Shown here: in pieces, positions 1 through 26,017 of the stretch
How the letters are laid out: the number at the start of each line of letters is the position of its first letter
Numbering within the stretch: position 1 is the stretch's first letter
From: Trypanosoma brucei
Taxonomy: Eukaryota
Reading direction: 5' to 3'
Assembly (NCBI GenBank): GCA_000002445.1
Contig: CP000070.1
Location: 544,001-608,000, forward strand
DNA length: 64,000 nt
Made by a program: the position numbers and the translations under genes
Notes under the pieces: model-generated
Seen by the model: only the letters and a program-made list of their open reading frames with translations
Database searches by the model: none
What the model was told of the DNA's origin: nothing

Positions 1-2440
1 ACGCACAAAAATAAATAAGTATATAAGTATTGCTGTCAGAGGGAATTAAAAAAAAAACCAGCCAAACAATGATAACATCAGTAATGTGCCAAAAAGCACA
101 GAAAAAGTAGAAAGAGCATTTTTCCCCCCCTTTTGATTATTTGCGTGCGTGTGTGAGAGATTTTTTAAAAAAAAGGAAGAAAAAGAGGTAAGAAAGGAAG
201 TGGAGAAGCTAAAGAAATGAAAGCAGCGGCAGCACTAGTGATGGCTGACTAATTGCACACGCATCTAGGCACACACATACACACACATATATATATATAT
301 GAACACGGAGCAAGGAAAGATGGGAACCATGAGAAAAATTAAAGAAAAATAAAAAGGAAATGCACAGAGATTAGGAGCGAAAGTCAGAGAGAGGCTACAG
401 CCTTTTCCTTCATAAATAAATATATATATATTTATTTGATTAATGATTTCAACTTATATTTCAGTATTTTTTCTTTCCTCTTTTTTTTTATTTCCCTAAC
501 CTTCAATTCCCACTCCATCCCTCCCTGTGTGCGCGTGTATTTGTGCTGGGAAAAAGAGAAAGTAAAAAAGAAAAAGAAAGGAGGTTGGGGGAAAATATTA
601 TTAAATTGAAGTTAGCGGTTCTAACTGAAGGTAAAAGCGAGGAGTAAAAGCATAAAAACTAAACTTGTTGTTGATTCATGAAGTGAATGAAATGACATAA
701 AACGAAATAATGAATAAACAACGAGGAATGGCACGTCAAAGGCAACAAAGACCGCTGGGCGGTGCAAAGTATAAATATAAATATATAACAATAAGTTTGA
801 GCCCCGCAAACAGTAAGGGCGGGCAGCAACGACAACAACAACAACAATAATAACAATGGGAGCAACAAAATGAAATAAAAAAAAGTAGTAAAATAAAAAA
901 AAGAAAAAAGTTGTGTGTGTGGAAGAGTGGTGGATTGGATCACGGGAAATGGAATATGAGATGCATATATATATATTAGAGAAAATTTACAATAAATGAT
1001 GTTTAATGCCATGGACCTAAACCCCTCTTTTCCCTCCCCTTTCCCATGCACGTGAAAATGATTCGTCTTCCGCCATTTGCTTCATGTGACGATATTTTAC
1101 CTCGCTTTTTTGTAAGGTTGTATCCGCACATATTAATAATATAATTATACTAATAATAATAATCAACTTCATGAATTACGCCTTCATCGAATTAAGTTTC
1201 CCCCATTTTCCTCGAAAACAAACCACCTCATCAAAGAACAATAAAAACTGACATCTCTTCTTACTTTATTTCCCTCCATTTCACGCCACTTATGAAAATA
1301 AAAATAAATATAAGCAAGTATAAGAAGAAACATTCACACACAATCTCTTACTTATAATCCTAGTTTTGATTCACAGTATTTTCAATAAATTCTGCCTTTT
1401 TTTCTTTTTCTTACATTTTATTTTTTTCCCCCTCTTGAATGATGATTATCGTTACAGAATTTTCATCATTTATTACTCTCAGTCTTTTTCAACTCGCCGC
1501 TTCAAAAATACTCCGACACACAAAAAAAAAATCCCCTCCGCCGAATTCCTTTAAAGAAGTTAAGAAACACGTCAGTCATTACTGAAAGTTCTGCCGTCCG
1601 TTGCCTTAAAAGCGAAAAAAAAAATCTCTTTTTTGTTTATTTGTATATGTGTTTGAAAACTTAATTGCACTTAACTTACTCTCCTTTTTTTTTATAATAA
1701 TAAAGTAGATTTTCACTTCCGCCACACGTTTCCTTCCATTTCATATACACGAACAAAAACAAAAAGAAAAAAGAACAACAACGAATTTAAATATATGAAG
1801 CCGTCCAGTGGCACTTTGTTCCCCCCCCCATTTATTTCATAAATTTACCCAAAACAATTATTTAAAAATATAATAATTTGCTTTCGTCCGTTTCCAAAAC
1901 GTGAGGCAACTGCCGAACTTATCTCTTCCCCCCTTTTTTACTTTTCTTTTCTTTTGGGTTCTTCTTCTAAACACACTTCCGTATGCGCCTTCTTTTTAAT
2001 TTAATTTTCTTCTTTCTCTCTTTCTTTTCTTTTTTGGTATTCCGTTTTTCCGTGCTTCTGAATCTTCATAAGAATGATATATATATATATAAAGAGAAAG
2101 AGAAAGAGAAAGAGAAAGAAATACACAGAGAAAAGAAATAAAACGTGATTTTTCTTTTTTTTTAAAAAAAGCGAAAGAAAATAATAAATTCAAAAAGTTC
2201 GCAACAGGCAGTGGCGCGTGTCACGTATTTAAATTTTTGCGACCGCTTCTTTCTATTATTTTCTTTCATTTTATATTCCTTTCATTTGCTCTAACAACTC
2301 CGTTATAAAGTTTATATATATATATTCAACATCATAATTGGCTTTATTCCTCTTCTTTTTTTTTATATGTGAATTTCGTCAATTCTCACAAGTATCTTTT
2401 GCTTTATTAAAGTTATCCGCTTGAACACACACATACATAA

Positions 2441-2476
2441 ATATATATATATATATATATAAATATATATATATAT
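2441..2476. repeat. (TA)n microsatellite, flanked by (CA)n and (GT)n short runs
   Basis: Seen directly in the sequence. Confidence 0.9.
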
Positions 2477-3152
2477 GTATTTGTGTGTGTGAATTTCTAT
2501 ACACTTATTAAAAATTCGTGAAGTGCAATGCGGAAATTAATTTGAAAAAACATTAAATTAAATTGAAAGAATGCAAGGGATGATAATGATGATGAAAGAC
2601 ACGGCAGAAGAAGAAGAAAAGCAAAAGATTTTAAAAAGAGGGCAACACCAAAAAAAAAAAAGAAAGAAAGATAAAGAGAAAGAGAGAGAGAGGAAGAGGG
2701 AGACTGCAGCACTTCCACTTTTTTAAACAAAAAAAAACAGAAAAAAAAACGAACGTCCGGCACCTCCTTTTGAATAAGTGAAGAGGTCAAACACAAAGAC
2801 GCACACGCACACGCACACAACTAAAGTTACGGCTAGTGAAACCTTTTAAAAAGAAAGTAAAGAGTTGTCTGCGCGTGTGAAAGAATGAAATTATGAAGGG
2901 AATTTGTTTCTTATTTCTCTTTTTCATTTAGTCAGTGGGCGGGGAACAAAACATAATAAACAAGACGAAGCGAAATGCACAAGAAGAAACAAATGAAATA
3001 ACAAAGGCAATGACAACCTACAAGTGGAAGAACGAAAGAAACAATAATAATAATAATAGTGATGAAATGAATTTAAAATAAAAACATAACCGATGAACAA
3101 TAAGATGCAGGAAAGATATGATGAGGAAAGCATAAAAGAAAAAAGGAAGAGA

Positions 3153-3176
3153 ATATATATATATATATATATATAT
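3153..3176. repeat. (TA)12 microsatellite
   Basis: Seen directly in the sequence. Confidence 0.9.
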
Positions 3177-4227
3177 TTCTAATAATAATTTATATAAGAA
3201 AGTGTGAAAATTTGTGTGTCTGAGGTGATTGGCGGCGGAAAATGGGATGAAAAACACAAAATTTGTGTTTAATTCTGTTGGCAGTTCTGCCACAATTACA
3301 TCACACATAAATTCCCCTCCATGTCAGTTCTCACACACTTTCACACAAAAATGTGTTTAGGTAAAGCAGAAAAATATCTCTCCCTTTTCTGTTTTCTTCT
3401 TCTTTTTTTAAAAATGCTCTCTTTTGTTTTAGTAAAGGACCTTTTCCCACACGGACAAAACACACACACACACACATTTATTCATCTTCCCTTTTCTTTT
3501 GTTTCATTGTCTTTTCATTCCACCTTTATTCCTTTCTTCTTTTTTTTTTTTCGTTGCTGTCGATTCCTCCCCTCTTCCTCCTTTAAACTCTACCTCAACA
3601 CACACACACAAAAGCTTCCCTTAAAATAAACAAAAAAAAATGATAACATCCGGCCCCAACCGCTCGACCACTTTTTTTCTCTGTTACTTATTTTTTTATT
3701 TTATGCTTATGTTATATACCTATTGGCTTTTTTTTTTTTTTGATCTCTTCTCTTTAATAATAAACTCATGGTTTTTTTTGTCTATCTTCCATTTTAGCAG
3801 CTCTATTGGTACCGCTAGCGCATATTCCTTTACTGATACAATCCAACCGCCTGATTAGTTGACGCGAGTGCTAAAATGCGAGATAAAAGATAAAAAAAGA
3901 AACAACTATTACCTAAACCTTTACTTCTGTAATACATAATAATAATTATATATGTACATATACATACCCCCCCACATATATATATATATATATTATTTAT
4001 ATATACTTCCACATATTTATTTACTTACGTGTGTACAACAATAAACAAATATGTGTTGTATATGTGCGTAGGTAATCGTAGGTAGCTTTATAAGCGTTTT
4101 CTCCACCAAGTGTTTGTGCAACTGAACACATGCTGTTATTTAAAAGTAAAGAAAAAAAAAACAGAAACATTGGAAACAGAAATCATAAAGGGAAGAAGGG
4201 ATAAGATGGGGGAGAAGCTTAACATAA

Positions 4228-5358
4228 TCACTGCCCTAAAGAAGTTGCGCCGTATGGATTGTGTCTCACACTTCCCGTGTTACGGCGAGGTGCATTGGCC
4301 AATGGTCGAAGTAATGGCCCACCAAACATTGAAGCACCAGCGCCCACATTTTCACATACCTGATGATGACTGAAGGATTGACATGTACGAGAAAAACTGT
4401 GTGGATGCTGTTGTTCCATTCCTGGTCCCATGTATGAATTACTGTAGGAAAGGCCATGACCATAATGTACGTGAGTCATGTCACCGTATGGAGGCCAATA
4501 CGGGTAATTGGCAGCAGGAGGACAACTGTTGGCTTGAGGAGGAAAGAAACCAACACCGCCATCATCGGCATAACGCCCTCCTCTTTGAGGGTAACCGCCA
4601 TTACACCAATCAGGCGCATTGGGGTCAAAACTTCGCTTTCTTGAGCACTGCGAATCACGACTGCTGGTGCTTTGCATGAATGGAGGGGAACCAAAAGAAC
4701 TGTTAGGCACTTGTCGTTTCCTTCCACTTCCCAATGGCGAGGCGGAAGCGGAAGTACGCGAGTGATGGAGACCAGATCCCGTGCTTGAGGCGTCCTCTCC
4801 AACAAAAGCTATTTCCCGGCAAATGTGCAGGAAACCGCATTCCTCACCGAAGCGACACAATCCACGCCGGTGCTCACGACACACTTTTTCCCTCGGCAAA
4901 TCCAAAGTACTGTCACCGCGCTCTGCGTACGCACTCCACAGGCAATTTGTTGAATTCATACGGGGAAGAGTAATGGAGGTACCACCAACATTTACTTGTA
5001 AATTCAGCGGAAGTCCACTGGAGGTACACGGGGCGCCATGAAAGAAACAACACGTTGGTTGCTCAAGTGCCTCTTGCCGAAGTTTCTCCACCACTTCCGG
5101 ATTGGCGTGAACTTGAAAACACCGCGAGCCCTGACGGCATCGGCCCTCCATGTAAAGTCTGCAAACACCAGGCACAAGTCCGTCATCATACATGGCATTT
5201 GTTGGCTCTACGGCGGAACCAGGAATGCGTAATTTTGTGCTAAGATGATCGAGAGCATCCACATACGCTGGGGTGACGAAAGGTGAAGCCGTCATGACGT
5301 TGTGCTGAGACCCTAACGAATGAGGGGAATGAGTCACTGTGTTCATTGAGAAGGACAT
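4228..5358 (-). CDS. Tandem CCCH-type zinc-finger protein (putative RNA-binding regulator), 376 aa
   Basis: ORF on the minus strand. There are two canonical C-x7-C-x5-C-x3-H fingers (CRLYMEGRCRQGSRCFQVH and CREHRRGLCRFGEECGFLH). The C-terminus is Pro/Tyr/Gly-rich and low-complexity. It has the same orientation as all other genes. Confidence 0.7.
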   Translation of the reverse strand: MSFSMNTVTHSPHSLGSQHNVMTASPFVTPAYVDALDHLSTKLRIPGSAVEPTNAMYDDGLVPGVCRLYMEGRCRQGSRCFQVHANPEVVEKLRQEALEQPTCCFFHGAPCTSSGLPLNLQVNVGGTSITLPRMNSTNCLWSAYAERGDSTLDLPREKVCREHRRGLCRFGEECGFLHICREIAFVGEDASSTGSGLHHSRTSASASPLGSGRKRQVPNSSFGSPPFMQSTSSRDSQCSRKRSFDPNAPDWCNGGYPQRGGRYADDGGVGFFPPQANSCPPAANYPYWPPYGDMTHVHYGHGLSYSNSYMGPGMEQQHPHSFSRTCQSFSHHQVCENVGAGASMFGGPLLRPLANAPRRNTGSVRHNPYGATSLGQ

Positions 5359-7378
5359 GTTTCTTCTTGTTTTCCTGTTGAATGATGATTAGGAGAATAT
5401 CGCTTTCTTCTTTTCTCTCTGTTTTGATTACCTCTCGCCGTGTTAGCTTCACCCCCCTGACTTTTACTGTCGTCTGCCTAACTTTGCCTTTTCTTGGTTT
5501 CTCTCTCTCTCTCTCTTTTTTTTTTTAATATCCTCCTTTTCTTTTTTTTACCGGACGTTTACGTACAATACACCTATATCAGTTGCCTCTAACCTCTGAC
5601 TTGCTGATGTTAAATTACACTGACACCTATTTGAAAAAGTGAACGAAATAAGATAACAATGTTTTGTATAGATTTCTCTCCTTGACCTTTTTCCTTATTT
5701 GTTGGAAAAGCCTACTATTTCTTTGCTCGTGCCTTTCTTATTTGATTCTTTTGTTTAACTTTCGTCCTTACAGTGTTCGGTTTTTTTTTTGGTTCTCTTT
5801 GGTCCTACTTCACCTAACCGTTACGTATATGTAAACTTTTTCTTTGTCTTGCAATGGCTGCTGTTATCTGATTGAAAATAACAGTAACAATTATACGCCC
5901 ACCGATTCCTCCCTTTCCCTTTTCCTGTAATCTTTTTCCTTTCCTTTTTTTTTTTCACCTTGTGAGTAAATGTTTATTTGTATGGACCACAACTTCACTC
6001 CCTGAAGCTGACACACACTCACACAGTGAAAAACAAATACTATAAGAAATAATAATAGTAATATCAAAAATAAACCAAACCCAATCCAATCAAACACAGA
6101 AGTAAAGAAATAGATAGATCAAAAAAAAAAAAGAGTATAGGGATATGGAGAAAAGCTTGTACAGGCACAAACAAACAAACACACGCGTGGAAGTTACTCT
6201 TCCCTTGTTTTTTGTTTTAATTTTTGTTTTTGTTTTTGTTGTCACTTCAATTTTTTTTTTAAAAAGTTTCTCTTTTATATCTCCCCCCCCCACGCGAATG
6301 TGCTTTGATGTTGATGTCTGATGCCCTCACTACGCACTCTCTTCTTTTTTTTTCCTGCTCTTACTCGCTGTTAAAATTCTGTTTATCTTTTGTTGTTGTT
6401 GTTGTTTTTGCCTTGACTAAAAATTCCTATGATAATTTTTATTGTATTATTATTATTATTATTATTGTCCACGCTTCACTACCGAATTTTACAAGAATAA
6501 ACTAACACAAACACAAACACAAGCGAGCGAGCAAACAAACAAACAATCAACCAAAAGGGTAAGAAGTCTAAACGAATGGAAAGCAGTTGCACACAAACAC
6601 AATAAAGTGGCTCTTTAAATCCTCCTCCTTTTCTTTTCTTTTCTTTTTTTTTCCTTTCCTTAATTCTCCTATTGTTGAGTTAAACTTCACCTTTATATAA
6701 AATATGTATGTAAAAAAGAAGAATAATAACAATAATAAAGGAAGTAATGAAGGAAATAACAGAGACGTAGGTGGAAGCAAATGGTAAGGAAAGATCCATT
6801 TCATTGGTTGCATTGATCAGATTCCGTTTAAGTGTGTGTGAGTGTGTGTGAAAGCATTTACAAAAATAAAATAAAAGGGAAGGGGGAAGGAAAGGGGAGG
6901 AAAAAAAAAAGAAGAAAAATCCACACAATGCATTTCCTCAGCGATAAAATCAAAAAAAAATATTGCTAACTTGTCTCCTCCTTCACAAATGCGTGTCTGT
7001 CTATTTCTGTGCTGTTCTCTCCCATATTCCTTTAAAGCGTGATCGAAAAAAACAAAACAATAAAAAAGATGAAGTGCAGTGACTCACAATTAACGAAAGT
7101 AACAAACGAAACAAAGATGAAGAAATTTTTTTTTAAAAAAAGAAAAATGCTGCACGCACAACGACACGAATAGAAAAGGAAAGAAAAGAAAAGGAAAACA
7201 AGCAGCTACAACACATACATGAGAGAAATTGCGTGGTGGAAATACATTTGGCACACTGCTCTCGCATAAAGTCACGGTTCGAATCACACACAAACACACA
7301 AACAATCTCCTTCTATAAATGAAGACAGAATTGCACAAGACTGCCCTCTTAACTAAATCTTTTATTTTCCGTAGGTGG

Positions 7379-7406
7379 TGTGTGTGTGTGTGTGTGTGTG
7401 CGTGTG
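7379..7406. repeat. (GT)n microsatellite in the intergenic spacer
   Basis: Seen directly in the sequence. Confidence 0.9.
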
Positions 7407-7647: not shown

Positions 7648-10600
7648 CTACACGCAAACAGGGCGTAATGGTCGGTTCATGTTTTCTGTAAAGGGAATTC
7701 CCTTCTTTCCCGCCACAACATCGGTGATGATGCCTTGGTCACCACCTGTAATGTTGTTGTGTGCGGCTACCACCTTCGTAGCGAGGATGAGAATTCTTTT
7801 ATACTTCTGCCCTAAATTCTGAGGTTTGGGCCCCAACTTCCCCTTCATTACGCGTTTCCACAACCCCTGCAAGATATCCATGAGTTCGGAATCGGCGGTG
7901 ACCATGAAGCAACATTGGACCTGTTGCTGACGCAACCAACGAAGCGGATGGGAACCACCGTCGCGGCCGCTAATGACTGCAGCGCACATGAGTGACATCA
8001 GTGAGACATGACGGTGTAAAGAGAGGCAGCGACTAGGAAGTGTTTTCAGATCCGGAACATCTTTCGAACGTAACCGCTTAATTGTTACAGTCAGTGATTT
8101 TGCAGGCGGTCCCGCGGTTTTACGCCGCGGTGCGCAGAAACCTCCAGACGCCTCAACCGGCTGCTTCAACGCCTCGTCCAATGGGGTGTAAGTGTAACAA
8201 CTACCAGGACGAACAGGGAGTTTACCGCTTTTCAGTTTTCCACATGGCACAAGCACATGACCAACACAGTACGTGGTTGTCTCTCCAGATGCATCCACAA
8301 TGTCATAACACGCTTCCACATAAAGGGAATCCTCAATTGCACCAGTGAAGAAGAGGCGGTCACTACTGCTCTTGCCAAACTTCCACTTAAACCCCCCTTT
8401 GTTTGCTTTCCCCACTGACACAGCTTGAAGAACCTCCGCAGTCATCCATTCCGAATCCTTTGATTTTCGTACACTCACAAGACAATAGCAGCGGGCATTC
8501 TCCGGCACCTTTTCACTGATACGAAGTTTTTCTACTCCAACTTCAAGATAGCATCCCTCCACACCTTTCTGTGTCCAAATGTTGGCGCTCACAGTGGTGT
8601 AAGAGTTGGCAGTAGACATGAGTAAAGTGTTTAGTTCGTCATCTTTATCACCGTTTATCATAAATGGCGCCTTCGGTACAAGGTGTTTGGGCCGTATCGT
8701 ATCGTGGAGGACGGCGTCATCGCCCTCACATAAGTACCGGTCACGTAGATTTGAGTTGTTGGCCAATAACTTCACATATTTTTTTGGATTAAAGACGGAA
8801 CCAAAGGCCAGCTCGTAAAGAAATGACGTGGCATCTGTCACTCCTTTTACCGTTGGGTTCAGCAGTTTTTCGACTAGCGGAGTGTACAAAACACGCAACT
8901 TCATCCCGGTACCCACAGTAACTACCATAATAGCGTGGCACACATATAAAAATGCTTCGATATAACGAAGGAGTTGCACAGCCACCTTCCGTTCAGTGAT
9001 ACCTTTAGCCACAATAAATGATCCAACGAACACGTCACCCGATTCACCATTCCAGTACACTTTGTGATCGCCGTACTTCCACCCCTCTCCGCAGCATCGA
9101 ACAGTGGTTTCATATGTCTGCGGTTGTATCCACCGTTTCTCGCCTTCGGCATCATCTACGATGTTTTCAGTTGCTTCTTGAGGTTGATCCGCGACACAAA
9201 GAAGAATTTGGCCTTGAGAGACCTGAGGCCGCAGAAATATTTTAAATTTCCCAACGGTTTGGGTTACTAAACCACAATACTCAAGGATTTCGAAGGCAAT
9301 GCTTAGTGGGACTTCGCCCGAATAGAACTCGTCATACGCGACGAACATCGACATGACTTTCTCCGTGAGACACCTGCTACCGTAATACTCCAAGATTGTC
9401 CTTGCTTTTTCACGGGGCACCACCGTATCAACATCCTCAAGAATCTTATACCGCTCCTTGGCCTTCTCCACACCAACCGCCCTCAACGCAAACATCAAGC
9501 TTTTCCTAGTGAGATTCCTTGAGGGTATAACTGAGATCGGGGCTTCAACAATATCCGCTGGTGAGTTCGCCTCATCGGATGCAATCCTTTGCGAGTCAGA
9601 TACTTTCCTTTCCTTCAAATCCTTAGCTGCTTCTACTTCGGTGTTCAATACCTTCAGAACTCTGTTGCGTTCCATGGTTTCAACCTGTAACTCGGCAAGT
9701 TGGTCAAGAAACGATGATAAAGTGTCTTCCATTGAGCTGTGCGGAACTATGCAACCTCGTGGCAATGAGTGAAATCGGGGCTCTGCTTCGGACGGGGCGG
9801 CGAGCAAAATTGTTTTGCGTATCCTTGCGGGCGAGGGAATCTCAGTGGACTCCGAACTTGTCACGCCGCCTTCCCCACTGAGTTCGATGCTGTAATCACC
9901 ACTTTTTGAGGCGCTATAACTTTCCGATCCGGTGTAGCCGCTAGTAGTTGGCTTAATTAGTGATGTGGTGGTCTCAACAGTGCTTTTAGAATGCTGTTCG
10001 GCACCTTTCGGTTCTTCTACCGCCTTCTGGGTTTTTGTTGCGCTTTCCGAATAATCATAGGAGTAGTCGTATTCACTGTCGTAATATGAACCTGTATATC
10101 CCAATTCTGAGGAGCTAACCGATACTACGTTAGCATCTTGCTCTGGTTGTGGGGCTTTAACAACGTGTGATGGGGGTAGGGGGTGTTTCACCTCCGGCGA
10201 GCTCACACTGCCGTAAGAATAAGAATAAGAATAACTGTACGAATCATCGTCTTGAACTCTTCCTCTGACAATCGGGCTTGCCGCCGGTGGAGCAGTGTGG
10301 GAGTGTGTTTCTGGCTTCGGGGGCTCCACGGGCCGTGCAGGTGCAGCAGCTTTCACTGTAGTAGTGTAATCTCCCCCAGAGCTGTAACTCTGTCCAGGCA
10401 TCCTCTGTGTGTAGCTATAACTTGAGTAGGAGCCAGTGTAGGAGCCTGAATGCGAACCATATGGTGAATAACTATAATAATCAGAACCACTGCCACTGAA
10501 GTTGTCAATTTTGAGCCCCTCTGTCGAGGTGGCCGGTGCCCGACCGAGCTGAGTCTTTGAAGGCATTTGTTGTGTTCTCGCTGCCTGGTACTTGTGTGCC

Positions 10601-11459
10601 ATCCCAACTGGTTGCTGACTTCCCACACGTGGATGTTGAATATTTGCTGGCGGTTGCGAATGCACGGCGGGTGGTTGCTGATTTCCAACAGGCACCTGTT
10701 GAGCCCATGGAGACACCTGCTGAACTCCCATTTGTAAGTGAGGTTGAGCCATGGGAGGATGCTGATGACCCACAACGGCTTGTTGGTACTTGGCATTTGC
10801 TGGTCGTTGCTGAACACTCGTATGCGTCTGTTGTTGATCCTCTTTTGGAATCTCTGGAGTCCGCAGTGACGGTCGCCGACTTCCTGTTGGTGGCTGCTGC
10901 CGAGATCTTGCAGACATTAACGGATCGTCCCCATGCCGCTGTTGAATATTTGCTGGCGGTTGCGAATGCACGGCGGGTGGTTGCTGATTTCCAACAGGCA
11001 CCTGTTGAGCCCATGGAGACACCTGCTGAACTCCCATTTGTAAGTGAGGTTGAGCCATGGGAGGATGCTGATGACCACTCGTTTGCGACGTTTGTTGGGT
11101 TATGGTTGGCATCTGCATGCTTCCGATAGGTGCTTTCGGTGCACTAATATTTGTTGTGGTTCCTGCCGCGGCGCGTTTCTTTTCACTGTCTAACTGGGCG
11201 GCACCTGCAACGTGACCGGAACGGGCGCTGGCAACGACATTATGCCCCTCATCGGTGGAGTCGCTGTAACTATAGGAATAGCTCGAGTATGATCCGGTGT
11301 AAGACTCCGTTGAAACTCGTGCGGCGCTGTTGCCACGAGGCCCCTGCACACTTTTGGATGGCACTGGTTGCTGAGGTGCAACTGGGGCGCGAGGGGGATG
11401 TTGCGGTGCAAGTGGCTGAACCTGCAGTTGTGGCTGCAGCTGCCCACTTTGGGTGTACG

Positions 11460-11498
<39 letters not shown>

Positions 11499-11760
11499 CT
11501 CTCGCCGGTGGGGGCTGCGTTTTGGTGCCTGACGACTCTATGGTTTGGGAATATGATGACGATTCATTACTATTAGTCCTGCTGGATTGTGTATAAGAGC
11601 CGTAGTAGCTATAGTCGTCCGAATAGTCGCTGTAGCTGTAACTCGAGCTTTCATCTGCCTGTGATGCGCGCTTGTTTCCTGCGGGACCGGGGCGAGTACC
11701 CGCATAGGGAACAACAGTCACATCCCCAAATGTAACACGCGCACGGTTCGTCCGCTCCAT
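7648..11760 (-). CDS. Large hypothetical protein (1370 aa) with SY-rich and polyQ low-complexity N-terminal half, internal duplication and a non-repetitive C-terminal domain of about 750 aa
   Basis: This is a long uninterrupted minus-strand ORF. The N-terminus has SYSYSDYSDDYSYYGSY-type tracts, a Q12 run and Q/P-rich segments. A 46 aa block (GHQHPPMAQPHLQMGVQQVSPWAQQVPVGNQQPPAVHSQPPANIQ) is repeated exactly. The C-terminal half is complex and non-repetitive, and I do not recognise its domain. Confidence 0.7.
10634..11076. repeat. Two identical 137 bp direct repeat copies (10634-10770 and 10940-11076), period 306 bp, inside the 1370 aa CDS
   Basis: I compared the sequence directly. The copies are identical from tgttgaatatttgctggcgg through ggaggatgctgatgacc. 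This encodes the duplicated 46 aa block. Confidence 0.85.
11461..11497. repeat. (TTG)12 on the plus strand, i.e. (CAA)12 coding a Q12 tract in the 1370 aa CDS
   Basis: A perfect trinucleotide run is visible in the sequence. It translates to QQQQQQQQQQQQ in the minus-strand ORF. Confidence 0.9.

Positions 11761-11862: not shown

Positions 11863-11895
<33 letters not shown>
11863..11895. repeat. (TA)16 microsatellite about 100 nt upstream of the 1370 aa gene start
   Basis: Seen directly in the sequence. Confidence 0.9.
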
Positions 11896-11903
<8 letters not shown>

Positions 11904-15784: not shown

Positions 15785-18700
15785 CTACTCATCCGCGACA
15801 GCCGCTGCTGCAAGTTTTTGCTCACGCCACCTCTGGAATGCCTTCTCTCTTTGTTCATGCAGGCGACGCTTTCTCTCTCTGTTTTTGGCGATCCGCTCCT
15901 GCTTAGCCACCATGATCCGCTTGCGTTTTTCCTCTCTTTCCTCTTTCGTAAGGATTTGGGACCGCTCGGTACGAATCATTTGCCTCTCCAAGCGGTCGTT
16001 GATTCTGAGAGTTTCGCGTCGCCGCCGCTTAGCAGCCTTCTCCTCATCAGTCAATTCTCCGTTGCGGTGCGCTGCAAGTGCCCGCACAACCTTCTTTCGA
16101 ACACGTTTTGCACGGCGGTAAAATGCAGCCTTTTCTTTTCGTCCACTTTTCTCGTACTGTTTATATAAAACACTCACCGGAGACGGAGCTTTTGTCTCTC
16201 GAGCTCGCGGCGTGAGGTTGAGAAGATTTTCCATTGCTGCCAGAAGGCGGATAGTAGCGGCCGATGTCATTAATGAATCGTCGTCTACCACTTCCTTCAC
16301 AATGTTGGAAGCCCATGCCGTGTCCAGCTGTACACGACTATTGTACTTGAGCACCATTTTGAGGCAATGCAAGTAGTCGTACAGAAGTGTGTACTTCATA
16401 TTATATACCGAGGTTGGTGTTACCGATTGAAGGAAACTGCTGATTGCACTTGCGGCGGATGCACGTAGAGTTGCCCCCAAGCCGGAGAGCCGCGGTAGCA
16501 CCGCTTCTACCATCTGACAACATCCTTGAAACACTCTTACGCGCTGGGGCCCTTCCAGAACCTCCACTTCGCTAAACTTCTCCAATGCTGCGGGTAGCAG
16601 TGCCCACGCAAACCCGTGACGGTAATGATGCATATCCCGCTTTACGGAAGGCATTCGTTTCTTTCCATCCCAACCACGGTCGCAGAAGATGGACTTGTAA
16701 AACTCCATCAACGTCACTCGAACGTCTTCACCTGCGTGGTTCTTATGTGCGAGGAAGGCGATGAAATGAAACACGCGAAGAGCCACGTCCTTCAGTCGGG
16801 TCATGCGCCGACGAACTACAAGAGCGTGTCGTGCCGAACGGCTCTCTTTGTTTACTAAAACCCGGTCCAGTTTGCGGCAATAGCTTTGAATGTCGGAAAG
16901 AAGTTGGAACAGACTCTCTGCCACGAGAAACCTTCCGAAGTAACGATTCTTCGTCATCATAAGCATTTGAAGGGACGAAACGGTACTGTTGAAAATCACG
17001 TCATCCGCCGCCTTCACATTTTCTCGACAAACCGCCAACAGAACCTGAAAAATGTGTACTGTTAATGGAGAGCGCATAGCCACCCCAACTCGTGTTGCAA
17101 CTTGAATTGCTCGGACAACATCACCCTTCTCCTTATTGGCTGTATCCGTTGGATACACGAATTGAAGATCTACGTTCCCAATCATACCCTTCAGTGCGTC
17201 AATGTACTGCTGAGTTGGAGCTTCTTCTTCCTCTTCGTCACCTGTATCAGATTCTTCATCCTCTACATCTGGATTGAGTTGCTCCTCATCGGCTCCCTCC
17301 TCCGGCTCCGTTGCTTCGTCCTCCTCAGTGGGTTCTTCGCTTTCATCCGCCTCTGTTTCTGTTTCTGTTTCTGTCTTATCCGCTTCATCCTCAGAGGGTA
17401 CATCACCCCCCTCGTCTTCCTCATCTTCGTCTTTTTCATCAACTTGAGTGCCTTCGTTGTTCTCGTCCTCCTCGTCACCTTCTTCTTCATCAGCTGAAGA
17501 ATCTTCCGCCTCTGCAGCTACTCCCTTTGCTTTAGCTTGCCTTATTAGTTCCCGGTCGTCCGTATGATAAGCCTCACGAAGCGGAGCCAAGACAAGGTCC
17601 AGAGTTGGCCGCTCTCGAACATAACGAGCAAAACGTAAAAGATAACCCGTCGCAATGCGGCGCACGCACACCATAAGGGGTAACACGTGAAGTGCCGAAG
17701 ACGGTCGCATCACGAGCGCCATCAACACATCATAAAACAAATCCAGAGTTTCCAACGTGCCCGTACGAAAGAACTGGCAAAGATCAGGTACCGTACTGTT
17801 AGCGAGGTTTTTCGCCTCTTCATTGCTGGGGTCGTCGGTACTCAGAATCAGAAAAAGCAATACGAGCAGCACATGAATATCTCGCTCCTCATAAAACAAG
17901 ACACTGCGGGTGGAAGAGCTTTCCAGTGCCTCAACAATACAATTGCGGGCCTTGCGGAAGTTGCGCTCAGTTGCGCCAGTGGTGTATCGCGTGATGCCCT
18001 TCTCCTCAGCCGCAAGATAATCCCTAATAACGCTTAAGGCACTCAACGTGCATTTTGGTCTTGACAAGGCGGCGGTGTACGTGAAGGAAAATACGTCCGA
18101 AAAAAGGTAGATAGCCCGATTCATGCATTTCTCATCACTGGACTTCGGAGTGGGGTAAAACCCAAACCGCAGCAAGGCACGAACCGCCTCGTCGACGTAT
18201 GTGCAAGTTACGCCCTCACGTAGCGGCACACTTAAGCAAGCCCGCAACTCCCGTAGCACCCACGTGCGGTTGGCGTGCGCAGACGGGTCCGAGTCCCTAA
18301 TGCAAAAATATTGTTTAATGAGGTCTCGGACTTTAGCATCCAGCATTTCAAGAGGCATCATCCGAAGTTCGTTGGGATCTGAAGCTTTTGCAACTATCTT
18401 CCTTCCATAACCCACCGCTTGGCTGGCAATCTTCAACATTTCTTGGCGTTGGTCGGCATCGTCGTTTTTTACAACCAATTGACCTAAACGGGCGACGAGT
18501 TGCTGAAACAGCGCCCGGCGCGGAATATCTGAGTTACCACGGCGGTAAGGCGCAATGGCGTTGTGCATCATTGTACTTAAATGCTCCTGCAGTGATTCAC
18601 CAGCGGCACAGCGCTGCACAAGGAGGTCAAACCAATCGTCCCACACGGGATGAACCATTGGGTACACGGCAATCACCTGTTCCTTGCGGAACAGAGCATT

Positions 18701-20230
18701 GGCAATTTGTTCCACTGTTGTTGGTTCTAGCGGATCCATCGCAGCATACTTCTGCACGGTGGTTGGGAGAAACTTTTTAATTGCCGGAGGTTTCGTCTCC
18801 ATTGCCATCAGACGTAGGAGCAGTTGCACTCCCTCTGGGCGAAAGTATTCTAACTTGGGGTAGAGGAAAAAGGCATATGATATCCATTCCATCACCGACT
18901 CATCCTCCCACAGCTTGGGAAACTTTTGAAGCGTTATTAACAATAAAGCCGCTGTCATGACGCGCGTAGCCTTTTGCTCAACGTAGGCAAAACATAAGTA
19001 CTGGGCGGCATGACGGGCATCTTCCACTCGCATCTTCCCACGGTTTGCAACCACGGCTCCCATCGCAAAAACAGCAGCTACAATGCGCTGGTTACGCTCA
19101 CCCCGCGTAGGGTCATTAATTGTGTCTGGGTCAAAATCATCCCAATCTCCCTGGTCTTCTTTCTGTTGCTCGCCTTGTGTATCTCTTCTCGCAGCCCGTG
19201 CCTCTAGTCGAGCCTTTGTGACTTTTAGCCGGGCATCGAGTGCTATTTCCTCTCCAATGAGTGAAAGCACAATAGATGGTGTAATGTCCGTTTCGCGCAA
19301 TGCAAGAAATAGAATATGTGCATGCAAAACAATCATCGCCATGTCCTCAGTAACCATGCCTAGCAGCATACGTGACAGAGCGTACGGAAGTGCGTGGTGC
19401 GCTGTATCCCGCATACTTTTCAGCGATCGGCAGTCAACGCCATCCACTAATTTGGCCTTTAGATGGTTAATCAGTGAATGCTGACCTTCTTTCCGACGGG
19501 TCGAGTTATGCCGGAGGCACATTTGGAGCAACGCACGAACGTGTTCCCGCTCCTTTACATTTTTGGCGAGCACTGCTCGAGACCGACTGACTTTTCCGTG
19601 TGTTTCGACCTGTTCACCATCCTTTTGATCACTGGCAGCAGCCGCCTCCTCCTCCTCATCTCCGCTGGTTAAACCCTGCGCTTTATTGTCGTAGTGTTTT
19701 TTGGTTCCACCACCGCGGCCCTTCCCCTTATTAAGTTCGTACTCTGCCCACTCATACCATACGATAAATGCTTGTACACTATTCGGTGCACCGCGTTCAA
19801 ATTTGCTTAAATATGAACGAAGAGATCGCACATCCTCCGGCAAATGTTGCTGAATAAATGGAGGAGGCACAAACTTGAATATCTCACTCAAATCCGCACC
19901 AAAAATATTGGTAGCATTTAACCTCGTTTTGAAGCTGGACAGATCGGAGCGCAACTCGGAGGAAACCTTGGCAGCTAAATGAATGTCAATGTCCTTTGTC
20001 CGAGCCGATCTCTGATGGGATCTTCCCTCGTGATTCCCAACAGCGGTGTGCTGCTGCGCGTGATGACCGCGGCGCTCCACCTGCTCTCGCGCATACTTTT
20101 CTTTATGATACCTTTTCGCCTCCTTCTTCACGTTGGTTGCTTTCCCCATTTTAGCCGAAGGCTTAACGTTACGGCGAGGGCCGCCGCTGGTGCCCCCTTT
20201 ACTCCCATGCTGAGCAAAGGAACCAGACAT
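15785..20230 (-). CDS. Large hypothetical protein (1481 aa) with an acidic D/E-rich tract of about 100 aa and a basic K/R-rich C-terminus; possibly a nucleolar or ribosome-biogenesis-type factor
   Basis: Long minus-strand ORF. The acidic tract is encoded around 17220-17520 (EDSSADEEEGDEEDENNEG...DEEEEEAP). The C-terminal 100 aa are rich in K/R/E (KRRRRETLRINDRLERQ...KRRLHEQREKAFQRWREQK). This architecture resembles MYBBP1A/Pol5-like or NOC-like nucleolar proteins, but I cannot confirm the family. Confidence 0.7.
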   Translation of the reverse strand: MSGSFAQHGSKGGTSGGPRRNVKPSAKMGKATNVKKEAKRYHKEKYAREQVERRGHHAQQHTAVGNHEGRSHQRSARTKDIDIHLAAKVSSELRSDLSSFKTRLNATNIFGADLSEIFKFVPPPFIQQHLPEDVRSLRSYLSKFERGAPNSVQAFIVWYEWAEYELNKGKGRGGGTKKHYDNKAQGLTSGDEEEEAAAASDQKDGEQVETHGKVSRSRAVLAKNVKEREHVRALLQMCLRHNSTRRKEGQHSLINHLKAKLVDGVDCRSLKSMRDTAHHALPYALSRMLLGMVTEDMAMIVLHAHILFLALRETDITPSIVLSLIGEEIALDARLKVTKARLEARAARRDTQGEQQKEDQGDWDDFDPDTINDPTRGERNQRIVAAVFAMGAVVANRGKMRVEDARHAAQYLCFAYVEQKATRVMTAALLLITLQKFPKLWEDESVMEWISYAFFLYPKLEYFRPEGVQLLLRLMAMETKPPAIKKFLPTTVQKYAAMDPLEPTTVEQIANALFRKEQVIAVYPMVHPVWDDWFDLLVQRCAAGESLQEHLSTMMHNAIAPYRRGNSDIPRRALFQQLVARLGQLVVKNDDADQRQEMLKIASQAVGYGRKIVAKASDPNELRMMPLEMLDAKVRDLIKQYFCIRDSDPSAHANRTWVLRELRACLSVPLREGVTCTYVDEAVRALLRFGFYPTPKSSDEKCMNRAIYLFSDVFSFTYTAALSRPKCTLSALSVIRDYLAAEEKGITRYTTGATERNFRKARNCIVEALESSSTRSVLFYEERDIHVLLVLLFLILSTDDPSNEEAKNLANSTVPDLCQFFRTGTLETLDLFYDVLMALVMRPSSALHVLPLMVCVRRIATGYLLRFARYVRERPTLDLVLAPLREAYHTDDRELIRQAKAKGVAAEAEDSSADEEEGDEEDENNEGTQVDEKDEDEEDEGGDVPSEDEADKTETETETEADESEEPTEEDEATEPEEGADEEQLNPDVEDEESDTGDEEEEEAPTQQYIDALKGMIGNVDLQFVYPTDTANKEKGDVVRAIQVATRVGVAMRSPLTVHIFQVLLAVCRENVKAADDVIFNSTVSSLQMLMMTKNRYFGRFLVAESLFQLLSDIQSYCRKLDRVLVNKESRSARHALVVRRRMTRLKDVALRVFHFIAFLAHKNHAGEDVRVTLMEFYKSIFCDRGWDGKKRMPSVKRDMHHYRHGFAWALLPAALEKFSEVEVLEGPQRVRVFQGCCQMVEAVLPRLSGLGATLRASAASAISSFLQSVTPTSVYNMKYTLLYDYLHCLKMVLKYNSRVQLDTAWASNIVKEVVDDDSLMTSAATIRLLAAMENLLNLTPRARETKAPSPVSVLYKQYEKSGRKEKAAFYRRAKRVRKKVVRALAAHRNGELTDEEKAAKRRRRETLRINDRLERQMIRTERSQILTKEEREEKRKRIMVAKQERIAKNRERKRRLHEQREKAFQRWREQKLAAAAVADE

Positions 20231-23797: not shown

Positions 23798-24598
23798 TCA
23801 TTTCTTCTTTTTCGGTGATTGGGAACTGCGTCGCATGAGGACGGCCTCCTTGTACCTCAAGTGTTCTTCACTCACATAATCCGGATCATAGCCATCGCCT
23901 TTAGTCCCAACCTCCACACGCCGACGCTCTGAACTCGATTCATTTTTGCCACGTAGAAGAGAAAGGATGCCATATTTGGAAGCCAATACGTACACGACAG
24001 CACAAGTAATGGCTAACAGTGTCAAGTATGTAAGGATGGTTGAAGGATCCGTATCCAGAGACGCTTCAATGGCCACTGTTTCATTGAATGCTGCAACAAA
24101 TTGGGGTTGCTCGGTTTCACCATTTTTATAGTAAACACCAACGATAAGGTGGTAGTCGTTAGGTTCCAGCAGAGCATGCGGAGTGAAGGTGTAGTGAAAA
24201 CTTGCGGATTCTCTGTACTGAACAATACGTGCATGACGAATGGCAGAGAAGTTCTGCAAGATCTGGTTAGGCGTGTGTGCAGGGGCAACACTGGCGGAAA
24301 CGAGAAGGACGGTGCTGTTCTGGCGTTGATCGTTGTTACGAAATGCGATTAGTGCATCAACACGCGAGCCTGCGTGAAAAGTGGGCGTCGAACCTCCACG
24401 AACCTTTGGGAAAATGGCTTGTACTGTAGGTAAAAACAATTTTTCCTCTTCTGCTTCCCCTTCACGCTCTGCGTCGTCACTCTCCGCTGTTTTGGCGGCC
24501 CCATCCGCCTCCGTGGCAGAGGCTGGTACGGCTGCAAGAAGGGACGAAGTTGCCGCTGCGAATAGAAGCAGCAACATTAAGGAACGACGGCAAGCCAT
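23798..24598 (-). CDS. Translocon-associated protein subunit alpha (TRAP-alpha / SSR1) homologue, 266 aa type I membrane protein
   Basis: There is an N-terminal signal peptide (MACRRSLMLLLLFAAATSSLLAAVPASA) and an acidic stretch (ESDDAEREGEAEEEK). The luminal domain matches my recollection of metazoan SSR1 (ILQNFSA, ASFHYTFTP, HLIVGVYYKNGETEQPQFVAAFNETVAIEA, compared with [45 protein letters not shown]). A single TM lies near the C-terminus (ILTYLTLLAITCAVVYVLASKYGI), followed by a basic cytosolic tail. Confidence 0.75.
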   Translation of the reverse strand: MACRRSLMLLLLFAAATSSLLAAVPASATEADGAAKTAESDDAEREGEAEEEKLFLPTVQAIFPKVRGGSTPTFHAGSRVDALIAFRNNDQRQNSTVLLVSASVAPAHTPNQILQNFSAIRHARIVQYRESASFHYTFTPHALLEPNDYHLIVGVYYKNGETEQPQFVAAFNETVAIEASLDTDPSTILTYLTLLAITCAVVYVLASKYGILSLLRGKNESSSERRRVEVGTKGDGYDPDYVSEEHLRYKEAVLMRRSSQSPKKKK

Positions 24599-25780: not shown

Positions 25781-26017
25781 CTACAACTTCAACATTTGCT
25801 TCACAGCACCACCACCCGACTCCCCCTTATCGAGTGCTCGGTTGATAATATCGCTTGCCTGCAAATATTTTACCGCACAACGCTCCACACACTTCACCTC
25901 ATCCATGGTTAACTCTTTACTGCTGAGATTCTTGCAGCAAAATGTAAAACATTCGGACTGCAAGCGACTCATCAGTACCTCCAAACGGAAGGATTCTTGC
26001 TTTACAGCCAGGCGCAT
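25781..26017 (-). CDS. Small TIM family protein (Tim9/10-like, twin CX3C motif), about 78 aa from Met at 26017. The ORF extends to 26098 through polypyrimidine-derived codons
   Basis: The twin motif is CFTFC, then 15 aa, then CVERC, followed by AVKYLQASDIINRALDK. This resembles Tim9/Tim10 (CFTDC...CIMKCSEKFL). The upstream in-frame extension (MFFFLSFFFCYCCCF) is low-complexity translation of a CT-rich UTR. Confidence 0.6.
   Translation of the reverse strand: MRLAVKQESFRLEVLMSRLQSECFTFCCKNLSSKELTMDEVKCVERCAVKYLQASDIINRALDKGESGGGAVKQMLKL

What the first reader, a model, noticed from the sequence alone, without database searches (positions are those of the whole stretch)
7648..11760. FUS-like SY-rich / polyQ low-complexity protein with a conserved-looking C-terminal domain
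The N-terminal 600 aa or so consist of [S/G]Y[S/G] repeats (SYSYSYSDYSDDYSYYGSY; DSYSYSYSYSYGS; GYTGSYYDSEYDYSYDYSES), a Q12 run and Q/P-rich segments. This is the composition of phase-separating low-complexity domains in FET-family and RNA-granule proteins. It is fused to a C-terminal region of about 750 aa of ordinary globular composition that I cannot assign to a family. Such an architecture suggests a scaffold for RNP granules or another condensate.
Basis: inference. Interest (0 to 1): 0.55.

Follow-up and report, generated by a model that had tools for sequence, protein, structure and literature searches.

The report
Trypanosome flagellar transition-zone protein TZP150
The serine-tyrosine-rich protein is real, but it is almost certainly the already published Trypanosoma brucei protein TZP150, a component of the gate at the base of the flagellum and not an RNA-granule protein; how it works there is still unknown.

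Summary
Window 7648-11760 (minus strand) is one 1370-aa ORF with a 645-aa low-complexity N-terminus (five Ser-Tyr tracts, a Q12 run, a Q/P-rich block) and a 725-aa folded C-terminus.

The sequence is Trypanosoma brucei chromosome 7. Gene order (ZC3H18, this ORF, three genes, TRAP-alpha Tb927.7.2190, Tim9 Tb927.7.2200) and a calculated mass of 150.1 kDa identify it by inference as Tb927.7.2150. That gene is TZP150, a published flagellar transition-zone protein used as a marker. This contradicts the RNP-granule reading.

New here:
- The C2 domain carries a conserved Cys plus polybasic loop.
- The (SY)n tracts are conserved in position across Trypanosoma, recur in every kinetoplastid-type orthologue, use mixed codons and do not vary between strains.
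- The polyQ run, a pure (CAA)12, and the Q/P block are specific to T. brucei and vary in length.

My model, inferred: the C-terminus anchors the protein at the transition zone, and the SY tracts act as self-associating stickers. The protein is already known; interest is moderate.

The parts
7648..11760 (-). Complete ORF, 1370 aa, 150.1 kDa. Identified as Tb927.7.2150 (TZP150) of Trypanosoma brucei.
   Evidence: ORF. It is 99-100% identical to T. brucei Q57YH7/AAX69341 and to T. b. gambiense XP_011774558. Mass. Synteny.
9826..11760 (-). N-terminal low-complexity, presumably disordered region (res 1-645).
   Evidence: Composition and low hydrophobic content. Only short motifs align between Trypanosoma species.
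11590..11646 (-). SY tract 1 (res 39-57, SSYSYSDYSDDYSYYGSYT).
   Evidence: Conserved in position in Trypanosoma orthologues.
11461..11496 (-). PolyQ run (res 89-100), encoded by a pure (CAA)12 microsatellite. Length varies between strains (8, 9 or 12 Q).
   Evidence: TRF (TTG)12.7 on the plus strand. Codons. Strain alignment.
11374..11406 (-). Proline-rich motif PQHPPRAPVAP (res 119-129). It corresponds to the LPPRVP motif conserved in all six Trypanosoma orthologues.
   Evidence: N-terminal alignment. Coordinates.
11260..11304 (-). SY tract 2 (res 153-167, SYTGSYSSYSYSYSD), followed by acidic residues.
10546..11163 (-). Q/P-rich block (res 200-405), an insertion specific to the T. brucei clade. 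It contains a 306-bp direct duplication. The 102-aa copy (res 229-330, window 10771-11076) is absent from the TREU927 GenBank protein.
   Evidence: Direct repeat 10623-10770 / 10929-11076 at 97% identity. Strain alignment. Absent from T. vivax, T. grayi, T. rangeli and T. theileri. Q content is 11.8% here against 1-7% in the others.
10408..10485 (-). SY tract 3 (res 426-451, SDYYSYSPYGSHSGSYTGSYSSYSYT).
10207..10251 (-). SY tract 4 (res 504-518, DDDSYSYSYSYSYGS). This is the longest pure (SY)5 run and the best conserved tract.
   Evidence: Mixed synonymous codons. It contains the SYSYSYS heptapeptide, which forms fibrils on its own (PMC8163036).
10045..10101 (-). SY/DY tract 5 (res 554-572, GYTGSYYDSEYDYSYDYSE).
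9742..9810 (-). Conserved entry motif of the folded region (res 651-673, ILLAAPSEAEPRFHSLPRGCIVP).
   Evidence: The regular expression is found in 14 of the 25 family proteins, including all four T. brucei-group copies, and in the window ORF. P22 is invariant in alignment A2.
9601..9723 (-). Long single alpha-helix (res 680-720), a possible coiled coil.
   Evidence: AF2 model m5103f7038311, helix 35-75, pLDDT about 80-90.
9277..9507 (-). Degenerate EF-hand pair (res 752-828). The loop is YDEFYSGEVPLSI (window 9298-9336). D, G and E are invariant, but the canonical Ca ligands at loop positions 3 and 12 are missing.
8923..9264 (-). PH-superfold (PH/EVH1/PTB-like) beta-sandwich capped by a long helix (res 833-946).
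8725..8919 (-). Helical linker region (res 948-1012), followed by a low-confidence loop (res 1016-1066).
8074..8556 (-). C2 beta-sandwich domain (res 1069-1229). It is detectable by structure only and has no Ca-binding aspartate loops.
8098..8145 (-). Loop inserted in the C2 domain with a G-hydrophobic-Cys motif followed by a polybasic run (res 1206-1221, GGFCAPRRKTAGPPAK). Candidate S-acylation and electrostatic membrane anchor.
   Evidence: Cys motif present in 12 of 14 homologues, including the distant ones; K+R >= 3 in the next ten residues in 9 of those 12. The function is inferred only.
7711..8028 (-). C-terminal helical bundle (res 1245-1350), with nearly invariant R-H and an invariant W.
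7651..7674 (-). Conserved C-terminal tail RPLRPVCV. The family consensus is AP..P[VI]x[VI]-COOH.
   Evidence: Tails of 20 homologues compared.

Best explanation
The ORF encodes TZP150 (Tb927.7.2150), a structural protein of the Trypanosoma brucei flagellar transition zone. The family is found in trypanosomes and in unnamed assemblies with trypanosomatid-like synteny or gene arrangement (inferred kinetoplastid/euglenozoan).

Shown here or published:
- It is the T. brucei chromosome-7 gene next to ZC3H18.
- Three papers cite TZP150 as a transition-zone marker.
- It has a 645-aa low-complexity N-terminus and a 725-aa folded C-terminus. The C-terminus is built from a long helix, a degenerate EF-hand pair, a PH-like sandwich, a calcium-independent-type C2 domain, a helical bundle and a conserved hydrophobic tail.

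Inferred mechanism:
- The folded module docks the protein at the transition zone through protein or membrane contacts of the PH-like and C2 domains. The conserved Cys-plus-polybasic loop in the C2 domain may help.
- The N-terminal region projects from this anchor. It carries five acid-flanked (SY)n tracts, conserved in position, that act as multivalent beta-prone 'stickers'. These bind each other or other transition-zone proteins and help build the stable, detergent-resistant matrix of the zone.
- The polyQ and Q/P-rich segments are recent spacer insertions that tolerate length change.
For: Identity:
- 99-100% identity to T. brucei and T. b. gambiense proteins.
- The gambiense copy lies at about 612 kb on FN554970.1, a 2.22-Mb record that I take from memory to be chromosome 7, directly upstream of a CCCH zinc-finger gene.
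- ZC3H18 is Tb927.7.2140. The fourth gene further up is a TRAP-alpha protein, matching Tb927.7.2190 'TRAP alpha motif'. The next is a Tim10/DDP protein, matching TbTim9 Tb927.7.2200.
- The calculated mass of 150.1 kDa matches the name TZP150.
- Localisation: PMC7617938, bioRxiv 2025.11.06.687033 and PMC11190437 use TZP150 (Tb927.7.2150) as the transition-zone marker, citing Dean et al. 2016.

Fold:
- AF2 models have pLDDT 74.8 and 84.0.

SY tracts under selection:
- 17-37 YSY/SYS triplets per orthologue against 1-8 in shuffles, in 13 of 14 kinetoplastid-type orthologues.
- Positional conservation in six Trypanosoma species.
- Mixed synonymous codons.
- Invariant between T. brucei strains while the polyQ and Q/P block vary.
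- Acidic/Ser/Gly flanks.
- The isolated peptide SYSYSYS forms amyloid-like fibrils (PMC8163036).

Membrane lead: conserved Cys motif, mostly followed by a polybasic run, in the C2 loop.

No signal peptide or transmembrane-length hydrophobic run was found.
Against: - The link to Tb927.7.2150 rests on synteny and mass, not on a sequence labelled with that ID. The primary paper (Dean et al. 2016) and the TrypTag tables could not be read.
- Nothing here shows which half of the protein targets the transition zone.
- Nothing here shows that the SY tracts self-associate in the context of the protein. The acidic flanks and possible phosphorylation could oppose assembly.
- Nothing here shows that the C2 or PH-like domains bind lipid. 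Many C2 domains are purely protein-binding.
- Distant homologues keep the folded module but lack SY tracts, so the tracts are not essential to the function of the core family.
Confidence: 0.55

Rival explanations
1. One reading: the protein is a scaffold of RNP, stress or starvation granules that phase-separates through a FUS-like low-complexity domain.
For: Composition only: Tyr/Ser-rich tracts plus polyQ. Some neighbouring genes are RNA-related, namely ZC3H18 and the PUF10 partner Tb927.7.2170. Trypanosome polycistrons are not functional operons (established knowledge), so this carries no weight.
Against: There is no RRM, RGG, zinc finger or any other RNA-binding domain. The gene is used in the literature as a clean transition-zone marker. 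The polyQ and Q/P-rich parts are not conserved outside T. brucei. The folded domains (C2, PH-like, EF-hand) are typical of membrane and cytoskeleton proteins.
Confidence: 0.04
2. The SY tracts are not self-assembly elements. They are regulated docking or phosphorylation motifs (Ser in an acidic, CK2/PLK-like context, and Tyr) that recruit partner proteins or control assembly during the cell cycle.
For: The tracts are short, discrete, conserved in position and flanked by D/E/S/G, as short linear motifs are. A PH/EVH1/PTB-like domain and a conserved Pro-rich motif in the same protein suggest peptide-motif interactions.
Against: No phosphoproteomic data could be retrieved. Five or more near-identical tracts per protein, and their number varying from 4 to 11 between orthologues (1 in P0019), fit multivalent stickers better than specific docking sites. 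The two readings are not exclusive.
Confidence: 0.2
3. The N-terminal region is a neutral, drifting low-complexity spacer, and only the C-terminal module is functional.
For: Distant homologues lack SY tracts and carry S/T-rich or short N-termini. The Q/P block and polyQ clearly drift.
Against: The (SY)n tracts persist across kinetoplastid-type orthologues whose C-terminal modules share only about 17-38% identity with the T. brucei protein and whose N-termini align only at short motifs. They are 6-18 times enriched over shuffles, are encoded by mixed codons and do not vary between strains.
Confidence: 0.12
4. The protein is a secreted or surface repeat antigen, or a dityrosine-cross-linked wall-type structural protein.
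For: Tyr-rich repeats occur in cross-linked extracellular matrices (general knowledge).
Against: No signal peptide is seen in the N-terminal sequence (read directly from the sequence) and there is no hydrophobic run of 15 or more residues. The folded domains are cytosolic types. The published localisation is the transition zone.
Confidence: 0.01

Closest known systems
TZP150 (Tb927.7.2150), from the T. brucei transition-zone proteome of Dean et al. 2016
   Same: Same species, same chromosomal position between ZC3H18 (Tb927.7.2140) and Tb927.7.2160-2200, and the same mass of 150.1 kDa. I conclude it is this protein.
   Different: In the papers I could read it appears only as a localisation marker. 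I found no description of its domains, SY tracts or mechanism. [quoted passage not shown]
C2/B9-domain proteins of the ciliary transition zone and centriole (CC2D2A, RPGRIP1L, B9D1/2, MKS1, C2CD3, CEP120)
   Different: There is no sequence similarity to any Pfam C2, B9 or CC2D2A family. The C2 matches are generic, with NEDD4, AIDA and Munc13 scoring higher. The domain order (EF-hand, PH-like, C2, helical bundle) and the SY-rich N-terminus have no counterpart in those proteins. Orthology is not supported.
FET family (FUS/EWSR1/TAF15) [G/S]Y[G/S]Q low-complexity domains
   Same: Tyr residues spaced by small polar residues in a long disordered region. This composition drives self-association in FUS (general knowledge).
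   Different: Here Tyr sits in strictly alternating (SY)3-5 runs with acidic flanks, concentrated in five discrete tracts and not dispersed as triplets. There is no RRM, RGG, RanBP2 zinc finger or PY-NLS. The Q-rich part is lineage-specific. It is not a family member.
Prion-inspired SYSYSYS (SY7) self-assembling peptide
   Same: The exact heptapeptide occurs in tract 4 (res 507-516 is SYSYSYSYSY) and in tract 2. SY7 forms long amyloid-like fibrils with a serine polar zipper and exposed tyrosines (PMC8163036).
   Different: SY7 is a capped synthetic peptide at high concentration. In TZP150 the tracts are embedded in acidic, Ser/Gly-rich context within a 150-kDa protein. Their behaviour there is untested.
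FG-nucleoporins of the nuclear pore (functional analogy only)
   Same: A folded anchor domain plus a long disordered region carrying many short cohesive aromatic motifs, located at a selective gate between two compartments.
   Different: Different motif (SY, not FG), different organelle and no homology. A barrier role for TZP150 is pure speculation at this stage.

Membership tests
TZP150 / Tb927.7.2150 (identity) | Chromosomal position between Tb927.7.2140 (ZC3H18) and Tb927.7.2190/2200 on T. brucei chromosome 7. | tested here: met
   Window order on the minus strand is: CCCH ORF 4228-5358, this ORF, 352-aa ORF, 1481-aa ORF, 357-aa ORF, TRAP-alpha 23798-24598, Tim10/DDP 25781-26098. Published IDs: ZC3H18 = 2140, TRAP alpha motif = 2190, TbTim9 = 2200. 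The gambiense orthologue is at 612 kb on FN554970.1.
TZP150 / Tb927.7.2150 (identity) | Predicted mass of about 150 kDa. TZP names appear to carry the predicted mass (my recollection of the naming convention). | tested here: met
   150.1 kDa for the window protein. The shorter TREU927 GenBank record gives 138.2 kDa.
TZP150 / Tb927.7.2150 (identity) | Localisation to the flagellar transition zone. | not testable with these tools
   Taken from the literature only. The primary paper is not held.
FET family (FUS/EWS/TAF15) | RRM, RGG boxes and a RanBP2-type zinc finger downstream of the SYGQ domain. | tested here: not met
   No Pfam family at E <= 1 on the whole protein. The C-terminus folds as EF-hand, PH-like and C2 domains.
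FET family (FUS/EWS/TAF15) | Dispersed [G/S]Y[G/S]Q triplets throughout the low-complexity domain. | tested here: inconclusive
   25 [SG]Y[SGTD] sites exist in the N-terminal region (26 in the whole protein), but they are clustered in five alternating (SY)n tracts with acidic flanks.
C2 domain superfamily | Eight-stranded beta-sandwich superimposable on solved C2 domains. | tested here: met
C2 domain superfamily | Sequence match to a curated C2-type family (Pfam C2, B9-C2, CC2D2AN-C2 and others). | tested here: not met
   No such hit for any of 14 homologues at E <= 10.
C2 domain superfamily | Calcium-binding aspartates in loops 1 and 3 (synaptotagmin/PKC type). | tested here: not met
   The conserved columns of the C2 block (P, S, W, F, D, Y, E, C, G) lie in strands. 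No conserved Asp cluster is seen in the loops (read from the alignment).
EF-hand | Helix-loop-helix pair superimposable on EF-hand domains. | tested here: met
EF-hand | Canonical 12-residue Ca loop with ligands at positions 1, 3, 5 and 12. | tested here: not met
   The loop is D-E-F-Y-S-G-E-V-P-L-S-I. Position 3 is F (variable in homologues, not the canonical Asp/Asn) and position 12 is I/V/T/A, so two ligands are missing (sequence; consensus).
PH superfold (PH/EVH1/PTB) | Seven-stranded beta-sandwich capped by a C-terminal helix. | tested here: inconclusive
MKS/NPHP transition-zone modules (orthology to a conserved ciliopathy protein) | Detectable homology to CC2D2A, RPGRIP1L, B9D1/2, MKS1, NPHP1/4, CEP290 and related proteins. 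| tested here: not met
   No Pfam hits. No PDB sequence hits except weak centrin. All 23 true homologues found are TZP150-like proteins. A search of the AlphaFold database was not possible.

The most novel reading that the evidence does not exclude
The conserved (SY)n tracts make TZP150 a 'cohesive-repeat' protein of the ciliary gate. Anchored by its C2/PH module at the transition-zone membrane or doublets, its 645-aa disordered arm would form a reversible cross-beta or hydrogel-like meshwork with itself or other transition-zone proteins. That meshwork would contribute to the diffusion barrier or to the luminal and peri-axonemal matrix of the transition zone, as an SY-based analogue of the FG-repeat phase of nuclear pores.
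Probability: 0.1. Interest if true: 0.8.

Novelty: already known. Interest (0 to 1): 0.38.

Why it matters
The transition zone is the gate that decides what enters a cilium or flagellum. In trypanosomes most of its roughly 74 proteins are lineage-specific and have no known function (PMC9323424).

This work gives TZP150, so far only a marker, a testable anatomy:
- a structure-only C2 domain with a Cys-polybasic loop;
- a PH-like domain;
- a degenerate EF-hand pair;
- five conserved self-association-prone SY tracts.

If the SY tracts do mediate assembly, this would be a natural, evolutionarily conserved use of a motif known so far from designed amyloid peptides. It would also bear on the long-standing question of what material forms the ciliary barrier.

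If they do not, the result is simply a corrected annotation. The protein is a flagellar gate component and not an RNA-granule scaffold.

Tried and rejected
- Pfam on the whole protein and on 14 homologues, down to E = 10 on the C2 block, gave nothing meaningful.
- phmmer of the C-terminus against PDB sequences gave nothing. The profile search gave only weak centrin hits.
- The search for homologous proteins was of little use. The three searches returned 2, 3 and 1 hits. The exhaustive representative search supplied the family instead.
- Foldseek against afdb50 was unavailable, so relatives outside the PDB could not be sought by structure.
- Dean et al. 2016 (PNAS) is not held, by DOI or by PMC id.
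- Supplement searches for Tb927.7.2150 in the transition-fibre, doublet-microtubule, TrypTag and RNAi cell-cycle papers found nothing. I therefore have no RNAi phenotype, no FRAP data and no sub-zone position.
- My first guess for the neighbouring CCCH gene (ZC3H20, which would make the ORF Tb927.7.2650) was rejected. Tb927.7.2640 and 2650 are the subject of a paper on paralogous stage-specific cytoskeletal proteins (the name CAP51/CAP51V is from my memory), and the chromosomal position of about 612 kb fits ID number ~2100.
- The carnitine acyltransferase in the window did not help to find the locus, because the published CRAT is Tb927.11.2230.
- PLC-like architecture (EF-hands plus C2, several PLC hits) was considered and rejected. 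There is no TIM-barrel catalytic domain, the intervening domain is PH-like, and the domain order differs.
- A full-text search for Tyr-rich low-complexity trypanosome proteins found nothing.


Full report
**1. The observation**

Window 7648..11760 on the minus strand is one ATG-initiated ORF of 1370 aa. All 18 other ORFs of 250 aa or more in the window, bar one short ORF on the plus strand, lie on the same strand. That is the arrangement of a trypanosomatid polycistron.

Residues 1-640 are S 15.6%, Q 11.9%, P 10.3% and Y 6.6%, with only 1-11 large hydrophobic residues per 50. Residues 641-1370 have normal globular composition.

The first string is slightly misquoted.

The Ser-Tyr alternation is far beyond chance:
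- There are 27 YSY/SYS triplets, against a mean of 1.5 and a maximum of 6 in 500 shuffles of the same composition.
- No (SY)>=3 run exists anywhere else in the six-frame translation of the 64-kb window.

**2. Identity**

The C-terminal 750 aa are 100% identical to T. brucei Q57YH7/AAX69341. The cluster also holds T. b. gambiense XP_011774558 (1367 aa) and a T. equiperdum model (1089 aa).

The gambiense gene lies at about 612 kb on FN554970.1 (2.22 Mb). It is directly followed by a 376-aa CCCH zinc-finger gene, as in the window.

Published gene IDs then fix the locus:
- ZC3H18 is Tb927.7.2140.
- Tb927.7.2190 is a 'hypothetical conserved, TRAP alpha motif' protein. The window ORF 23798-24598 hits Pfam TRAP_alpha.
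- TbTim9 is Tb927.7.2200. The window ORF 25781-26098 hits Tim10/DDP.
- Exactly four ORFs lie between the CCCH gene and TRAP-alpha, so this ORF takes the number Tb927.7.2150.
- Tb927.7.2150 is TZP150, and the window protein has a calculated mass of 150.1 kDa.

I regard the identification as very likely (about 0.9). It is still an inference, because no sequence labelled with that ID could be read.

**3. What is published**

TZP150 is cited to Dean et al. 2016, the T. brucei transition-zone proteome. Three later studies use it as the reference marker for the transition zone (PMC7617938, bioRxiv 2025.11.06.687033, PMC11190437).

The primary paper and the relevant supplementary tables were not available. 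I found no description of the protein's domains or repeats.

**4. The family**

An exhaustive phmmer search of 1.84 billion cluster representatives with the C-terminal 750 aa found 24 proteins at E <= 0.001. One of them (P0026) is an unrelated repeat protein.

- Named members are from T. vivax, T. grayi, T. rangeli and T. theileri. The rest come from unnamed assemblies.
- One such contig keeps the downstream CCCH gene, which is trypanosomatid-like synteny.
- A contig carrying a distant homologue shows eleven tightly packed same-strand genes, a euglenozoan-like arrangement.
- One distant cluster contains a 'Telonema subtile' transcriptome sequence. This is either contamination or a sign of wider distribution.
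- All kinetoplastid-type orthologues (about 1000-1260 aa) have an N-terminal region with (SY)n tracts and the conserved module of about 720 aa, which begins at a motif like ILLAAPSEAEPRFHSLPRGCI.
- The distant homologues whose N-terminal regions could be examined (P0020, P0022, P0024, P0025) keep the module but lack SY tracts.

**5. The folded C-terminus**

An AF2 model of res 646-1370, built with a 14-sequence alignment, has mean pLDDT 74.8. A sub-model of res 743-1015 reaches pLDDT 84 and pTM 0.79.

- **Around these:** a long helix (res 680-720), a helical linker, a disordered loop (res 1016-1066) and a C-terminal helical bundle (res 1245-1350).

No curated sequence family detects any of these domains.

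The EF loop, D-E-F-Y-S-G-E-V-P-L-S-I, keeps the invariant D, G and E. It lacks the ligands at positions 3 and 12, so it is probably structural and does not bind calcium. The C2 domain has no conserved Asp loops.

Two further conserved features emerged:
- A loop inserted in the C2 domain carries G-hydrophobic-Cys, usually followed by three or four Lys/Arg. The Cys motif is present in 12 of 14 homologues, including the distant ones, and the basic run in nine of those twelve. This looks like an S-acylation plus electrostatic membrane anchor (inference).
- The C-terminal tail follows the consensus AP..P[VI]x[VI]-COOH.

**6. The N-terminal region**

An alignment of six Trypanosoma orthologues shows that the region is not uniformly drifting. 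Conserved in position are:
- four to five SY tracts;
- an LPPRVP-type proline motif;
- a TTTS-LI motif.

The roughly 200-aa Q/P-rich block is an insertion of the T. brucei clade.

Within T. brucei, the SY tracts are invariant. The polyQ is 8, 9 or 12 residues long, and a 102-aa unit is present once or twice.

At the DNA level the polyQ is a pure (CAA)12 microsatellite. The SY tracts use six Ser codons and both Tyr codons. They are therefore maintained at the protein level and not by slippage.

Across 14 orthologues the 94 tracts are flanked mainly by S, D, G and E. The isolated heptapeptide SYSYSYS, which occurs verbatim in two of the tracts, forms long amyloid-like fibrils with a serine polar zipper and exposed tyrosines (PMC8163036).

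**7. Interpretation**

Best model: TZP150 is a structural transition-zone protein.
- Its folded module, with its protein- and membrane-binding domain types (C2, PH-like, Cys-polybasic loop, hydrophobic tail), anchors it.
- Its disordered arm offers multivalent SY 'stickers' for homotypic or heterotypic association.
- The Q/P and polyQ segments are length-tolerant spacers.

The identity and the anatomy are shown here, and the localisation is published. The anchoring and sticker roles are inferred.

Rivals:
- **RNP-granule scaffold.** Contradicted by the localisation, by the absence of RNA-binding domains and by the non-conservation of the Q-rich parts.
- **Phospho-regulated docking motifs instead of self-association.** Plausible and not exclusive.
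- **Neutral low complexity.** Argued against by conservation, codon usage and strain invariance.
- **Surface or cross-linked antigen.** No signal peptide or transmembrane segment.

**8. Comparison and novelty**

The protein is not a FET-family member, because the defining RNA-binding domains are absent.

It resembles other ciliary-gate and centriole proteins in having a non-calcium-type C2 domain, but no homology to CC2D2A, RPGRIP1L, B9 proteins or CEP120 could be shown.

It is an already known, named protein, so the finding is not novel as an entity. What appears new, within the literature I could search, is:
- the domain dissection;
- the conserved SY tracts;
- the Cys-polybasic loop.

The most novel reading still open is an SY-based cohesive meshwork at the ciliary gate, analogous in principle to FG-nucleoporins. 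I give it about 10%.

**9. Verdict**

The entity is already known, and interest is moderate (0.38).

Noticed in passing
window 11461-11496 and 10623-11076: Two length polymorphisms lie inside the ORF. The (CAA)n run encodes 8, 9 or 12 Gln in the TREU927 record, gambiense and this window respectively. A 306-bp unit is duplicated here and in gambiense but single in the TREU927 GenBank protein (1264 aa). The latter could be real strain variation or a collapsed repeat in the old assembly.
   Followed up: partly
window 8098-8145 (res 1206-1221): A G-hydrophobic-Cys motif, followed by a polybasic run in most, sits in a loop of the C2 domain. The Cys motif is conserved in 12 of 14 homologues, including the distant ones. 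It looks like a palmitoylation and electrostatic membrane anchor.
   Followed up: partly
window 11374-11406 and 8923-9264: The disordered arm carries a conserved proline motif (LPPRVP type), and the same protein has a PH/EVH1-like domain. EVH1 domains bind proline-rich peptides, so an intra- or intermolecular contact is conceivable. This was not tested.
   Followed up: no
window 7651-7674: The extreme C-terminus (RPLRPVCV) follows a family-wide consensus AP..P[VI]x[VI]-COOH, kept even in the distant homologues. It may be a docking tail.
   Followed up: partly
window 15785-20230 (minus strand): The 1481-aa neighbouring ORF (168.7 kDa, no Pfam hit) should be Tb927.7.2170 by gene order. That protein is reported to co-elute with PUF10 and to bind mRNA (PMC5724185).
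   Followed up: no
window 25781-26098 (minus strand): A small ORF with a twin CX3C motif hits Tim10/DDP (E 1.7e-10). It corresponds to TbTim9 (Tb927.7.2200) and was used as a synteny anchor.
   Followed up: yes
window 1-4000: There is a very AT-rich stretch (GC 0.30-0.34) downstream of the ZC3H18 ORF with no ORF of 250 aa or more. It is probably a long 3' UTR or intergenic region.
   Followed up: no
window 7378-7406 and 11863-11903: (GT)14 and (TA)20 microsatellites flank the ORF in the intergenic regions.
   Followed up: no
P0015 (3374 aa, unnamed assembly): In this gene model a TZP150 homologue (about res 1866-2500, preceded by Tyr/Ser-rich repeats) is fused to long unrelated N- and C-terminal sequences. 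This is most likely a read-through gene-calling artefact on a polycistronic contig.
   Followed up: no
P0024 cluster (P0031, EukProt 'Telonema subtile'): A distant homologue without SY tracts is attributed to a Telonema transcriptome. It is either contamination by a euglenozoan or evidence that the C-terminal module exists outside Euglenozoa.
   Followed up: no
window 29084-54386 (minus strand): Other genes of the same transcription unit, by Pfam hit: a DUF7883/Egalitarian-WH protein, a mitochondrial carrier, an API5-like protein, a carnitine/choline acyltransferase (a different gene from the published CRAT Tb927.11.2230), a SEP-domain protein, the DNA primase small subunit and a cNMP-binding protein.
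   Followed up: no
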